Assembly: GCF_902652985.1 (NCBI RefSeq)
Contig: NC_047024.1
Span: forward strand, 17,856,001 to 17,920,000
Direction: 5' to 3'
Source of the DNA: Pecten maximus
Lineage: Eukaryota
DNA length: 64,000 bases
The position numbers are program-made. Shown one piece after another: positions 15,001 to 57,000 of this stretch (within the stretch, counting starts at the first letter, position 1; every line of letters starts with the position of its first letter).

Positions 15001-18000
15001 ATTTTACTTTTAATATTAATCTATGTAAAGTTTAGCAGAAAAGTAATTAGCATGCATATCAGATATAATAGATGCACAATGGTGATAGTACTACAATATC
15101 CATTAACTTAAACTGATCACTTATTCCAAATTTACATAACAATCATTGACTTCCTGATGAAAACCTGAAGCAACCAGCTGATTATAGCTTTTCTCTTTGT
15201 CTAAATCCGTTATGTTAGAGGTTATAAATAAAAAAGAAAAGATTTTTTCTACAATTTTATTTGTATAAATAATGTCAACTACAATTTTGAGAACCCAGAA
15301 TATATCATTTGGTATAAGTGATGTTTGAAATTTGTAAAACATAAACCACTCAAAGTCAAGAAATCCCAAAATGTAACCTTTTGCTGAGCTGCTATCGGAA
15401 GCCTCACTGGGTTCATCCGGAGAGGAAGCATCAACAGATTCCACCTGTGAAACGGCCTCTCCATCGACAGATTCTGTTCCGGGGCCATCTTCAGACTCTG
15501 CCTTTTCATTGGCTGTATCGGCCTGTCTGTCACTAGACTCCGCCTCCTCCTTGTTAGAGGTAGTCACCTCCTCATCTGAATCGCCAGCCTCCGTAGTCTG
15601 GTTTGAGATACTTGTAGAATCATTTTGGTCCCCGGATGCAACGTCTCCCCCTCCTAGGTCCTCGTTTGAGGGCTGATCCTCCGTGACCACTTCCAATGGC
15701 GGTGGTGATGGGTCTCCTGGAAGTTCAATCTCTACAAAAAGAAATTTATAAAAGTATTGAATAGAAATCATACAAATGCAGTATAAACTCACATAAAATA
15801 CCAGTGTTAGTATAGTATTGTTTTTTATAGTATGACCAGTTGGAAACAAATAATAATATCAAATCACTATCAACCAAACATCCTGCAGGGTGTCAGGTAA
15901 AATCTGGACAACACAGCTATTATGCTACAAGTTTACTTCGAGTTCGAATGGAATGGGCATGGATCTACTGAGTGCCCTTAATACAACCTTCAGTCTACAT
16001 ACAAAATTGTGTGATCACTTCTGGGGTTAATTATAAATCAATCAACGCTTTACTTACATTGACTTGATCATTGCTTGCTCTTTCTGCATGAATTTTAAAC
16101 TAGATGGCAAGAAAATGTAACCATTGTAAATATTAGCCGCAATATACCGCTCGGCTAGAGAGATCTTCTCTTTAGCTTGATCGGTTGAGCATTATTCTGG
16201 TAAGCCAGGGGTTCTGGGTTTTATCCCTAGCGGAGGCAGTGATTTAAATATAATTAATCATGCTCTCTGTTTCATTGGCGCCCCATGTAGGGACCCAGGA
16301 AAAATACTCATTCTTGCCCCATAAGCATCTCTGTTACCTCTGGATAACTTGAGGATGAGTTTTCTCCTGGATTGGGAGCATGTAACCCTGGTAAATACTA
16401 GCCAGAATTATACCGCTCAGCTATTCAGATTTTCTCTTTTGCTTAATCGGTTTGATCCCTAGTGGAGGCAGCGATTTAATCTTAACTAATCATGCACTCT
16501 GTCACAGAGATGGAAACCATCTCTAAATACCCCACTGTTACACATCTCCACGCCCTGATTAAAAAATCCTGAAGTTTGTTGAATTTTGTCAATGAGTTTT
16601 GAAGGAGTTGCAAATCAAAAAGGGACCATATTGACAATGGAGGATGACAGATAGTGATCTTGACATTAACAAATTTATCAGACAGGAATGTCTGGTTATG
16701 ACAAGACATAACTGATTACAAAGTTATGGAGCAGACACAACTTTGTGTAGTTCATCAAAAGGACACAATGAGAAGCCCTTTGTTTGAAACCTTGACCTTT
16801 GAGGGACAAAGCAAATTAATCATGTGTCTCACTTTCTTATAATGATTGACATTCATCATGAAAAGTTCTGTACCTCTACTATGACTGTTTACAAAGTTAT
16901 GAAGCTGACATGAATGTGTTTCGGACAGATGCACACATGGACAAATACAGGGGTCCCATGAAAAACACTAAATTTGAGAATCTGATCTTTGAAGAACAAC
17001 TATACTATATATGCCCATGATTACATATTTTTTCAATGCCATGAATATTTCATAGCCATGATTCTTTTTCAGATCATGGCCTTCAAATAAACTCATACAA
17101 AAAATCATGACCATAAATAAAGTCATGGCCATGGAAATTGATGGTTATGAAACATGTTTTTCATTGAATTATGATGAGAACCAAAACGCAATTCATGGAA
17201 TTTTCATGGCACCATGAAAAAAAAAATTTTAATGGCACATTTTCATGGGTTCATGGTAATTTTATGGATATTTCATTGATATTTCACAGCTTTTTCATAA
17301 AACTACATTAGGTAGTGTACTATGACTGGTAACAAAGTTATGAAGTGGACACGAAAGTGTTTCGGATGGCTGGACAGACAGGGCGATCACTATTGGGTGT
17401 CGGCCAATATGTGGCAAAGCTCTAATAATCTTACAAAACTACCAACCATCTTGTAAAGTGTCACCACTGTCAAAAAAGTCTGTGGCTTCCACTGCACTCT
17501 CTGTTGACTCTAAAACATAAAAGTAATATCTGAAATGTTTAAAACTATTTTCAAATAATTCTACTTCAGAAACGTTTAATTACATTCAAAAATAATATCA
17601 TACAAGTTTAATTATTAAAAGTAACATATAATTTGAACTGATATCAAACATTTTTTAGGGCTGTTCCAAAACTACCGGTGTGCACGTGAGAGGGGACTGA
17701 TATCAAACATTTTTTAGGGCTGTTCCAAAACTACCAGTGTGGGAGGGGACTGATATCAAACATTTTTAGGGCTGTTCCAAAACTACCAGTGTGGGAGGGG
17801 AGACAGCATCTTTTTAGAGACCCCACCGCCAACAAATATGAAAACATACACTGATACGGATGTTTTAGTTACCTGATTTAGGAGAGGTAGGTATCTCTGA
17901 ACTGTCGAGGTCGTCGTTAGGCAGTAGAGCTGGGGGCTGATGACACTGGTACAGAAGTTTAAGTTTGTGTGTGAGATCTCCGTGACAGATCACACCCAAC

Positions 18001-54000: not shown

Positions 54001-57000
54001 CACCAAAAGAACGATTTTCCCTTGTCAAACATATCTCGCCCAAGAATGTCCACAGATTCCAGGGATCTTTCATTCTGGTGGTAGAGGTATATGTAACAGG
54101 AGAAGGAAGCATTTGTTTACAAAGTGCAATACATGTACAAGCTGTTGTATTTCATGACCTGATAAAAATGATATTTGTGTATTTTACCCCTGGTCGTGTC
54201 TCGTGTGAAGTACATTTCTGCTCAGTGAGGTTATGATACATTGTATATGCTTAGACCAGAACTGAGTGTCATTGTGAACGTGTAAATATTCAACAACAAC
54301 AACAACAACAACAACAGCAATGGCATATAATTGAAATACATGTAATCGTAGAGGTATACTGGACATTATGTCCTGTGTAATATTGACGATTGACGTTTTA
54401 CATGTATGTCCTTGACAGGATTGTCGGCGATGATGACGGAGGGACAATGTTTACGCCGGAGGAGTTTGAGGATTATAAAAAGAACGTTCTACCAAAGGTA
54501 AACATCTTTTACCAAATATCATTGACAACAAAACTGAAATTCGCGGGTAAACATCTTTTACCAAATAGCATTTAAAACAAAACTGAATTTCGGAAAATAC
54601 TTATTCTTAGATTCAATTTAACAAACGATTTGTTACTGACAATTCTTATTCCCGAAAGGAAAGCAAAATATAGATATCTGTATAAATATACCTTAACCAT
54701 TGTGTTGATGTCTGCACACTTTCAACAAGTTGCCATGTTGTAGTTGTAGATTATGTGACGGATATTTATTACAAAGTTAAAACAAGTACAGTATAATGAA
54801 ACAAAAATGCATATTTATTCATGTTCATATTTGCCCAATATTATCAATTTTGAGTCTGAAGTATACCTTCGTTATTATGTCAGTTTTCTTTGCTGTTTAA
54901 GTGTTAAGTGTTCTGTAGATATATATATCACTTGCTGTGATATTTTTTTTAGTTTTTATATAACAAGTTTCTATAACATGTCCACAGCGGATGAAGAACC
55001 GTCTGTACACAAGCTGGTCGTCCCCAACAGGAATGGACTGTAAACTTATTGGACCGGAGACGCCATGTTTCTGCAAACACAGGTAAGTCAACCCCAACAT
55101 AGATTGACGTATTCTTCGCAAAGGATATGCAGTGTAGTGGGCGTTAGATAATGCTATCAATAGTTCTGTGTATTTTGCATATTAAATCTGCTTAGATAGT
55201 GGAGATGTTTTCTGTTCAATAAGATTAATTAAAAATGAGATAATTATGGCTGGTATGATGCGTGGATACGTGTAATGTAATATGTATTGATTATCAAGAC
55301 ATAAAATCTTCGTTATTAATCATAAAACTGTTGGATTACAGGAAACACACTTATTAAGAACCACTCAAATTTTAAAGCAAACCAAATTAAAACGGAATGA
55401 CGAAATCGTGCACCATCAAAAGGGCTATACAAACTGTATTTAGTAAAATGGGATTTCTTAGTCCAGTTTTGGCCAAATTCCAAATTAAGTGCAGATCAAT
55501 TTCTACTAGCATGTACCTTTTATAGGTTATTTATACAATCATTGATAAATTCATACGCAATCGGTTATTTTGCCGGTGATAACAAAATCCCTATTGAGCA
55601 TATTCTGAAAGTAATTCTACAGATTTATTCCATAAACTAAACTCGTAATTGTGTAGATATTGCATGTTGATGATGTAACGACAGACCCATCATTAATATT
55701 GGATTATTTCTATTCATTCCCTTGTGTCAGAAACGTCGATCATTCCTAGCGATGAATACTAATAATCTCTGACGCCAGGGGATGACACCAAACTAATAAC
55801 TGATACAAATGTCCGACATTTGTTTACAAATGTAAACAGCATTGATTACATAAACGATTTCGTGTCATTTTACAGGTATAAGCAACACAAGACGGATTTC
55901 GATGCAATTCCCACAGACCGGCCTATTTTGTTGCCATGCCGACAGAAGGGATGCAAGTGCGCCACCTACCATTACATACCTATGAACGGAAGTCAGCCAA
56001 TCAGGTGCAGCACGTGCAAACACACTGCAGATGAACACTCGGAGGAACAGCCACGGCTCGTGTGCAAACGCAGTAAGATACACTGTCATAGTTAGACAAG
56101 TAATGCTTTAAATAGTCTCTTGTATTCAAGTAACTTAGTTGATAGTCCTATGTGTTCTTGTAATCAGTGTGCTGAAACTACCGAGCATTTTCCTCCTCAA
56201 TTGTCTCAATTACTAGCAGCTAAGAATTCAATGTTTTGGGAGCCTTCCTCCTAATTTTAATATTAATACTTTACTATATGGTAGTCTAGACATGCCAGTA
56301 CAGTACAATGAAATTATTTTAGATTGTGTCCAAAACTTTATAAGCCTATATGCTTTTAACAGTTAAGTATCCTTCATCTATGATCTATGATGTCAATTTA
56401 GAATTGTATCTGTAGTATATTTTGTATAAGTGCTACTTCCCACAACAGGTGTAGCCCTGTGGCTCTATTGTCGTACATTGTATCATGCAAACAGCTAGCT
56501 GTTTTTACACTAGGGAACGATAGGGGAAACCCAAACCGAGTCTAGGAATATCAGAAAAAAGGCCCCGTGTTAAACTTTTATCAGAAAAGGCCTTATGATA
56601 AACCTTTGATAAGAAAAAGGCCTTATATTCAAGTTTTAATCAAAAAAAGGAATTATGCTAAACTTTTAATCAGAAAAAAACCCTTTTACTAGACTATTAA
56701 TCACAAGAGTCACAAACATTAGGATATTTAGAGATTTTAATGCAACATCATCAGTTTATTAAAATCCAGTACCATTTCCAATAGAACTGAGAACTGAGGC
56801 ACATGCAATTTATACTAAATTAACGCAGTTAAAGAGGCTTACCCGTAGACGGACCGGTAAACGGCACATCTCCGATCACTAAATAAACTTCAGTACACGT
56901 TTCTATGTGACAAAATTAGAGGCTTTCCGACTTTATTTCTTGAAAACAATTACAGAATATGTATTTAAAAGACGTTTTAAAACTCAACCTGAGAGGGAAA

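What the first reader, a model, noticed from the sequence alone, without database searches (positions are those of the whole stretch)
17636..54597. Recurrent tandem amplification anchored on exon/intron junctions
Seen: independent tandem repeats include or abut splice sites at the TBC1D9 exon-5 donor (37 bp), exon-12 donor (51 bp), exon-13 donor (about 21 bp, 28419-28465), exon-15 acceptor (84-94 bp), exon-15 donor side (21 bp) and exon-26 donor side (about 52 bp), and at the FAM221A exon-2 donor (50 bp). In each junction-spanning case, the copy belonging to the functional exon is intact and the extra copies extend into the intron. Inference: a mutational process (or tolerance) that seeds tandem repeats at junctions, expanding introns and supplying new alternative splice sites. 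Survivor bias could also contribute.
Basis: partly seen in the sequence, partly recalled or inferred. Interest (0 to 1): 0.68.

Follow-up and report, generated by a model that had tools for sequence, protein, structure and literature searches.

The report
Minisatellites spanning scallop splice junctions
In two king scallop genes, five short tandem repeats were copied from sequence lying across an exon/intron border, so the introns hold rows of spare splice sites; this kind of repeat is already known from human genes, and the excess over chance here is only marginal.

Summary
The window is king scallop (Pecten maximus), not human. A RefSeq protein, TBC1 domain family member 9-like (P0003), matches the minus strand exactly in 30 coding exons. 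A FAM221A-like gene lies on the plus strand.

The other two start 20 and 71 nt inside their introns.

The exon 5 case stands out. Its 37-nt unit is the last 35 exon nt plus GT, repeated 24 times. Of the 23 downstream positions, 19 keep the authentic donor 9-mer.

I placed each array's unit at random in the collapsed genes. That null expects 1.6-1.9 junction hits among 19-22 arrays, against 4-5 seen (P 0.025-0.09, uncorrected and post hoc).

The best reading is ordinary local tandem duplication in a repeat-rich genome (17.5% of the window). A duplication across a junction is tolerated because the exon-proximal site still gives the original mRNA.

The kind is known: human F7 intron 7, IFI6, CBS, LMNB2 and PDGF (PMC1557585). 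A junction-targeted mutational process is neither shown nor excluded.

The parts
13077..38735 (-). Coding span of the TBC1D9-like gene: 30 coding exons and 58 junctions. Exon 5 is 35655-35569, exon 12 is 29228-29096, exon 13 is 28585-28466, exon 15 is 27504-27316, exon 26 is 18053-17873.
   Evidence: Exact match of all 1294 residues of P0003 (Pecten maximus) and GT/AG resolution.
34714..35603 (-). 37-nt x 24.1 array. Its first unit is the last 35 nt of exon 5 plus GT. The intronic part (855 nt) is 60% of intron 5. Of the 23 downstream positions, 19 carry the authentic 9-mer ATG|GTAAGT, 2 carry GT variants, 1 is weak and 1 is broken (GA).
29027..29127 (-). 51-nt x 2.0 array. The unit is the last 32 nt of exon 12 plus the first 19 intron nt, and the second copy keeps the donor AGG|GTAGGT.
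28807..28929 (-). 2.3 further, more diverged copies (52-nt period) of the exon 12 junction unit. They lie about 100 nt further into intron 12, and their donor motifs are disrupted.
28422..28465 (-). 21-nt x 2 array starting at or just after the exon 13 donor GT. Donor-like ATG|GTA motifs recur 20 and 41 nt downstream of the real AAG|GTCTGT.
27487..27719 (-). Three units, each holding about 37 nt of intron 3' end, the AG, and the first 47-56 nt of exon 15. Pseudo-acceptors lie 84 nt upstream (in frame, open, would add 28 codons) and 178 nt upstream (out of frame, stop after 9 codons) of the authentic acceptor at 27504.
54497..54592 (+). 49-nt x 2.0 array that starts with the last nt of FAM221A exon 2 (G|GTAAAC). 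The donor is duplicated 49 nt downstream, and using it would shift the frame.
27186..27295 (-). 21-nt x 5.2 intronic array starting 20 nt into intron 15. It contains no splice site and is not junction-anchored.
17637..17801 (-). 59-nt x 3.0 intronic array, 71 nt from the exon 26 donor and 127 nt from the exon 27 acceptor. It is not junction-anchored.
51340..59882 (+). Coding span of the FAM221A-like gene: 8 coding exons and 14 junctions. Exon 2 is 54419-54497.
   Evidence: Pfam FAM221 hits, tblastn with Argopecten FAM221A-like P0121, splice motifs read.
42177..47666 (+). PAN/apple-like plus C-type-lectin gene with about 5 exons (borders approximate). Its 3 arrays are all more than 90 nt from any exon. 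It was used only to widen the chance test.

Best explanation
These are ordinary, young, locally generated minisatellites in a scallop genome where such arrays arise often. A short segment (21-84 nt) is duplicated in tandem, by replication slippage or unequal exchange, and may then expand. The genes here carry a junction about every 400 nt, so some duplicated segments happen to lie across an exon/intron border.

Such a duplication is tolerated because the exon-proximal site (first donor, last acceptor) still yields the original mRNA. The extra copies then count as intron and can amplify and drift freely. Duplications wholly inside exons would be removed by selection.

The result is longer introns and rows of pseudo splice sites. 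In all four donor cases, using a pseudo-site would give a frameshift or an early stop. One upstream acceptor of exon 15 would add 28 codons in frame.

Shown: the anatomy, the exon origin of the units, and the reading-frame consequences. Inferred: the duplication mechanism, the choice of splice site in vivo, and removal of mis-spliced RNA by nonsense-mediated decay.
For: 1. Repeat-rich setting. Arrays with period >=10 and TRF score >=50 cover 11,202 of 64,000 nt (17.5%). They are about as frequent outside the three coding spans (0.33 per kb) as inside them (0.47-0.82 per kb).

2. The units come from the exons, not the reverse. The exon copies match P0003 exactly. The exon ends encode residues conserved in 9 aligned mollusc orthologues for exons 5, 12 and 13; the start of exon 15 lies in a variable linker.

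3. No dispersed family. Of 72 junction-centred 60-mers, only the same five have extra copies, all local. Three others give only marginal, remote 16-18-nt hits.

4. Frame consequences. Read-through hits a stop 41, 18 and 15 nt into introns 5, 12 and 13, and the 37-nt and 49-nt units shift the frame. Only the outermost donor keeps the protein.

5. Chance alone gives 1.6-1.9 junction hits among 19-22 arrays, so 4-5 is not far from expectation.

6. Precedent. PMC1557585 (abstract, introduction and discussion read) describes human minisatellites whose first unit spans an exon/intron border. It shows experimentally for F7 that only the most upstream of several identical donors is used.
Against: The count still exceeds the null about 2.5-fold (P 0.025-0.09). 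The null ignores any selection against junction duplications, so the true excess could be larger.

Two arrays have an edge within 3 nt of the junction, against 0.32 expected (P 0.04, post hoc).

Four of the five cases are donors and one is an acceptor.

No RNA data were available. Use of the first donor or last acceptor rests on a predicted RefSeq protein and on its collinearity with orthologues.
Confidence: 0.7

Rival explanations
1. A mutational bias seeds tandem duplications preferentially at splice junctions. Possible causes are microhomology offered by splice-site consensus motifs, or damage and repair coupled to transcription or splicing. On this view junction minisatellites are systematically over-produced in this genome.
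For: 4-5 junction arrays against 1.6-1.9 expected. 2 arrays have an edge within 3 nt of a junction against 0.32 expected. The exon 5 unit begins with AAGT, the same letters as intron positions +3 to +6 of the repeated donor.
Against: P values of 0.025-0.09 are uncorrected and come from the window that suggested the idea. Array density is similar outside the genes. 17 of 22 arrays in the three genes have no link to a junction. No known mechanism was identified. Literature searches found no genome-wide report of such enrichment (listings only).
Confidence: 0.15
2. The arrays are kept by selection because rows of pseudo splice sites do something. They might act as U1-binding intronic elements that strengthen recognition of the upstream exon, or as a source of regulated isoforms such as the in-frame 28-codon extension of exon 15.
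For: 19 of 23 downstream exon 5 positions keep the authentic donor 9-mer, with a window-derived PWM score of 10.4 against a median of 8.3 for 36 real donors. The frame stays open for 96 codons upstream of exon 15, and the -84 acceptor is in frame.
Against: Copy-to-copy identity of 87-98% fits young, not-yet-decayed repeats without any selection. All four donor arrays would give a frameshift or early stop if used. P0003's 90%-identity cluster holds only one sequence, which is weak evidence against an annotated isoform with the insertion. No expression data were available.
Confidence: 0.07
3. Assembly artefact: copy numbers or whole arrays are mis-assembled from noisy long reads.
For: The published assembly was built from PacBio Sequel reads with wtdbg2 and then polished (PMC7191990, passages read). 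A 1-nt frame inconsistency in an A-run of exon 11 shows that small errors or differences exist.
Against: The copies carry structured variation, with several unit variants recurring in ordered runs, rather than random noise. Five separate arrays with different units would all have to be wrong. An artefact might change copy number, but not the existence of junction-derived copies.
Confidence: 0.04
4. The repeats are inserted mobile-element or satellite sequence that happens to carry splice-like motifs (introner-like origin).
For: Bivalve genomes hold many unclassified repeats: 16.7% of the P. maximus genome is made of elements absent from the preconfigured RepeatMasker libraries (PMC7191990, passages read). 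A roughly 95-nt piece ending in poly(A) sits between the exon 12 junction copies.
Against: The units consist of conserved coding sequence of the adjacent exon plus its own splice site. No copies occur elsewhere in the 64-kb window.
Confidence: 0.02

Closest known systems
Human F7 intron 7 37-bp VNTR minisatellite (Borensztajn et al. 2006, PMC1557585; abstract, introduction and discussion read)
   Same: It is a tandem array whose first unit spans the exon/intron border, so the authentic donor is followed by identical pseudo-donors. The unit length is also 37 nt, as in the exon 5 array. Only the most upstream donor gives the normal mRNA.
   Different: F7 has 5-9 units holding 4 exon nt and 33 intron nt. 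The scallop exon 5 array has 24 units holding 35 exon nt and 2 intron nt. For F7 the splice choice and the polymorphism were shown by experiment. Here neither could be tested.
Other human junction-spanning minisatellites listed in PMC1557585 (introduction): interferon-inducible 6-16 gene intron 2 (25 pseudo-sites), CBS intron 13 (15-20 units), LAMIN B2 (100-bp unit, 10-15 repeats), PDGF intron 4 (81-bp unit, 16-18 repeats)
   Same: The donor is reiterated many times inside the following intron. The copy number of the exon 5 array (24) is in the range of the 6-16 case.
   Different: Those are single cases in separate genes. Here four junctions of one gene, and one in a gene 12.6 kb away, carry such arrays, and one of them is at an acceptor. 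In 6-16 and CBS, the two pseudo-sites nearest the authentic donor are also used. That is unknown here.
Internal tandem repeats at exon-intron boundaries of human segmental-duplication genes (De Grassi & Ciccarelli 2009, PMC2812944; passages read)
   Same: Tandem repeats lying on exon/intron borders alter gene structure and offer cryptic splice sites.
   Different: That work concerns copy-number differences between recent paralogues that create novel introns. Here the introns are not new as far as can be seen, and no paralogue comparison was possible. Its supplementary tables, which list the cases, could not be seen.
Intron gain by tandem genomic duplication (e.g. PMC3265369, PMC4974935, PMC2891723; seen only as search listings and abstract starts)
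   Same: A tandem duplication duplicates splice signals, and the transcript is restored by splicing between them.
   Different: In that model the duplicated segment is exonic and a new intron is born. Here an existing junction is duplicated and an existing intron grows.

Membership tests
Junction-spanning minisatellite (F7 intron 7 type) | Head-to-tail array of at least two units of roughly 10-100 nt | tested here: met
   TRF: 37 nt x 24.1, 51 x 2.0, 21 x 2.0, 84 x 2.1, 49 x 2.0, at 91-98% matches.
Junction-spanning minisatellite (F7 intron 7 type) | The first (or, for an acceptor, the last) unit spans the exon/intron border | tested here: met
   Exon nt inside the array: 35 (exon 5), 32 (exon 12), 18 by TRF or 56 by alignment (exon 15), 1 (FAM221A exon 2). 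The exon 13 array starts 2 nt after the border and is borderline.
Junction-spanning minisatellite (F7 intron 7 type) | The splice-site sequence is reiterated inside the intron | tested here: met
   Exon 5: 19 of 23 downstream positions identical to the authentic 9-mer, and 22 of 23 keep GT. Exon 12: 1 identical copy plus 2 disrupted ones. FAM221A exon 2: 1 identical G|GTAAAC. Exon 15: AG present at -84 and -178.
Junction-spanning minisatellite (F7 intron 7 type) | Only (or mainly) the exon-proximal site is used in vivo | not testable with these tools
   No RNA data. The only support is that the predicted RefSeq protein P0003 and its orthologues are collinear with the exon-proximal sites.
Junction-spanning minisatellite (F7 intron 7 type) | Copy number varies between alleles (VNTR) | not testable with these tools
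   Only one haploid sequence is at hand.
Intron gain by tandem duplication | The intron is absent at that position in relatives and is bounded by the two copies of a duplicated exonic segment | tested here: inconclusive
   Orthologous proteins align without gaps across the exon 12/13 and 13/14 borders, but their gene structures could not be read. The arrays lie inside introns that also hold non-repeat sequence.
Introner / mobile-element-derived intron sequence | Many dispersed near-identical copies in unrelated loci | tested here: not met
   Junction probes find extra copies only next to their own junction, but only this 64-kb window could be searched.

The most novel reading that the evidence does not exclude
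In Pecten maximus, and perhaps in bivalves generally, minisatellite birth is biased toward splice junctions. Junction-spanning arrays would then be a systematic, fast-turnover source of intron growth, decoy splice sites and new alternative exon ends. A single 25-kb gene can already carry four of them.
Probability: 0.15. Interest if true: 0.6.

Novelty: new member of a known kind. Interest (0 to 1): 0.3.

Why it matters
If the excess proved real genome-wide, it would point to a link between splice junctions and tandem-duplication mutagenesis, and to a steady supply of alternative splice sites in repeat-rich invertebrate genomes.

Even as an ordinary case, the exon 5 array is a natural test of how a spliceosome outside the vertebrates chooses among identical sites. 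It has 24 strong donors in a row, 20 of them identical and 37 nt apart. This is the question addressed in mammals with the F7 minisatellite.

The arrays also matter for annotation. Gene predictors and short-read aligners can easily pick the wrong copy.

Tried and rejected
- A homologue search with the PAN-like ORF 42045-42485 found nothing. The exhaustive representative search then gave two unnamed relatives, which were used only to place that gene's exons approximately.
- Literature searches for a genome-wide enrichment of tandem repeats at exon/intron junctions, or for anything of the kind in bivalves, gave no such study (listings only). PMC10078293 (passages read) concerns repeat length and splicing in humans, not junction placement.
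- Orthologous introns of other scallops could not be compared.
- A mobile-element origin was considered and rejected for the five junction arrays.
- A reading of the exon 15 donor-side array and the exon 26 array as junction-anchored was rejected.
Searches used single exon-bearing ORFs.
- Supplementary files of the cited papers were not seen.
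Full report
**Where the window comes from.** A single exon-bearing ORF (24443-24640, minus strand) was searched against the protein collection. The best named full-length hits were scallop TBC1D9-like proteins. The Pecten maximus protein P0003 (1294 aa) is reproduced exactly by the minus strand in 30 blocks.

Exon borders were fixed by requiring GT/AG and an exact translation across each junction. A single solution was found for 28 of 29 introns. 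At the exon 10/11 junction the canonical sites are clear, but the window has one A more in an A-run than P0003 implies.

FAM221A-like was placed on the plus strand by Pfam, by tblastn with the Argopecten protein P0121 and by reading the splice motifs.

All searches used single ORFs.

**The seven arrays.** TRF lists all of them. Five contain or touch a splice site.

1. **Exon 5 donor.** The 37-nt unit is the last 35 nt of the exon plus GT. The next unit supplies AAGT, so every unit border reads ATG|GTAAGT. There are 24 units (34714-35603), and the intronic part is 855 of the 1421 nt of intron 5. Of the 23 downstream positions, 19 carry the authentic 9-mer, 2 carry GT variants, 1 is weak and 1 is broken. 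The 9-mer scores 10.4 on a matrix built from the 36 real donors of the window, whose median is 8.3.

2. **Exon 12 donor.** The 51-nt unit is 32 exon nt plus 19 intron nt. It is present twice in tandem. About 2.3 more diverged copies lie about 100 nt further on, and their donor motifs are disrupted.

3. **Exon 13 donor.** Two 21-nt units start 2 nt after the junction. Donor-like ATG|GTA motifs recur 20 and 41 nt downstream.

4. **Exon 15 acceptor.** There are three units. Each holds about 37 nt of intron 3' end, the AG and the first 47-56 exon nt. This leaves pseudo-acceptors 84 and 178 nt upstream of the real one.

5. **FAM221A exon 2 donor.** Two 49-nt units begin with the last exon nt (G|GTAAAC).

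The other two arrays are plain intronic repeats. The 21-nt array after exon 15 starts 20 nt into the intron. The 59-nt array after exon 26 starts 71 nt into it.

An independent probe gave the same picture. Of 72 junction-centred 60-mers, the same five have extra local copies, and three others have only marginal remote hits.

**Direction of descent.** The exon copies match P0003 exactly. The ends of exons 5, 12 and 13 encode residues conserved across nine mollusc orthologues, while the start of exon 15 lies in a variable serine-rich linker. So the intronic copies derive from the junctions, and not from an inserted satellite.

**Chance.** The window is very rich in minisatellites. Arrays with period >=10 and score >=50 cover 17.5% of it. 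They are about as dense outside the three coding spans (0.33 per kb) as inside them (0.47-0.82 per kb). The genes have a junction roughly every 400 nt.

For the null, I collapsed each array to one unit and placed that unit uniformly in the collapsed coding span, barring wholly exonic placements.

| Test | Arrays | Seen | Expected | P |
|---|---|---|---|---|
| Two well-defined genes, array holds a junction | 19 | 4 | 1.63 | 0.07 |
| Two genes, within 5 nt of a junction | 19 | 5 | 1.87 | 0.03 |
| Third gene added, array holds a junction | 22 | 4 | 1.75 | 0.09 |
| Third gene added, within 3 nt of a junction | 22 | 5 | 1.91 | 0.035 |
| As above, 28807 array dropped, holds a junction | 21 | 4 | 1.62 | 0.07 |
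| As above, 28807 array dropped, within 3 nt | 21 | 5 | 1.77 | 0.025 |
| Array edge within 3 nt of a junction | 22 | 2 | 0.32 | 0.04 |

- The third gene is the lectin-like gene, whose exon borders are only approximate.
- The 28807 array was dropped in two rows because it belongs to the same family as 29027.
- Other thresholds gave P between 0.02 and 0.17.
- All these values are uncorrected and come from the window that suggested the hypothesis.

I read them as a hint of about a 2.5-fold excess, not as a demonstration.

**How it most likely works.** Tandem duplication of a segment that straddles a donor gives exon-end|intron-start twice. Splicing from the first donor restores the original mRNA, and the second copy becomes intron. 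The mirror case holds for an acceptor. So 'the functional copy is intact and the extras extend into the intron' follows automatically and needs no special process.

The reading frames fit this. Read-through meets a stop 41, 18 and 15 nt into introns 5, 12 and 13, and the 37-nt and 49-nt units shift the frame. Only the first donor keeps the protein.

At exon 15, the -84 acceptor would add 28 codons in frame with no stop. The -178 acceptor gives a stop after 9 codons.

That a spliceosome picks the most upstream of several identical donors was shown for the human F7 minisatellite (PMC1557585). Whether the scallop does the same is inferred.

**What is known.** PMC1557585 states that several human genes hold minisatellites whose first unit spans an exon/intron boundary: F7, the 6-16 gene, CBS, LAMIN B2 and PDGF. 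PMC2812944 describes tandem repeats at exon-intron boundaries that reshape human paralogues. The kind is therefore known.

What is new here is a set of members in a mollusc, and their number: four junctions of one gene, plus one in a gene 12.6 kb away.

**Limits.**
- No scallop genome, RNA data or population data could be reached.
- Supplements were not seen.
- The published assembly rests on PacBio Sequel reads (PMC7191990), so copy numbers may be imprecise.

**Verdict.** It is best explained by frequent random minisatellite birth plus tolerance at junctions (confidence 0.7). A junction-biased mutational process remains possible (0.15).

Noticed in passing
window 2206-8418: A 6.2-kb satellite of 45-nt units (138 copies, 94% matches) lies downstream of the 3' end of the TBC1D9-like gene. 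Other long arrays: 74 nt x 6.1 at 11372-11822, 36 nt x 16.5 at 57383-57976 (FAM221A intron 4), and 34 nt x 12.3 at 60779-61196.
   Followed up: no
window 30220-30227 (exon 11 start, minus strand): With the canonical donor after 30638 and acceptor before 30227, the window's run of six A gives a frameshift relative to P0003. The protein fits only if the run is one A shorter. This is either an assembly homopolymer error or a corrected RefSeq model.
   Followed up: partly
window 28928-29020 (intron 12, minus strand): A piece of about 95 nt ending in a run of 15 A sits between the second and third copies of the exon 12 junction unit. It is flanked by TTGTC / TTTTC and looks like a small retroposed insertion into the array.
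   Followed up: no
exon 12/13 junction (29096 | 28585), orthologue alignment: Crassostrea virginica isoform X2 carries a 30-residue insertion and Haliotis rufescens a short one exactly at this junction. They begin VDI and VGI, which is what reading through the scallop donor (GTAGGTATA = VGI) would give. Downstream alternative donors may exist at this junction in other molluscs.
   Followed up: no
exon 5 end, 35569-35603: Pecten maximus lacks two residues (KL) that three other scallop sequences have near the end of exon 5, inside the very segment that is amplified. All 23 intronic copies share a G where the exon copy has A at unit position 7.
   Followed up: no
window 27478-27495 (exon 15): A 9-nt in-frame tandem duplication lies inside the exon (KSE KSD).
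   Followed up: partly
window 18797-18826: The pyrimidine tract before the exon 25 acceptor is itself a degenerate 7/14-nt repeat ending 5 nt from the junction (TRF score 46, below the main threshold). It is counted only in the score>=30 runs.
   Followed up: partly
window 42177-47666 (+): This gene has a PAN/apple-like first exon and a C-type lectin last exon. Two unnamed relatives suggest alternative 3' parts: exons at 45856-46028 and 46720-46870, or the lectin exon at 47446-47666.
   Followed up: partly
window 611-1150 (-): An ORF with a weak von Willebrand factor A domain match (E 1.9e-06) probably belongs to a neighbouring gene that runs off the window.
   Followed up: no
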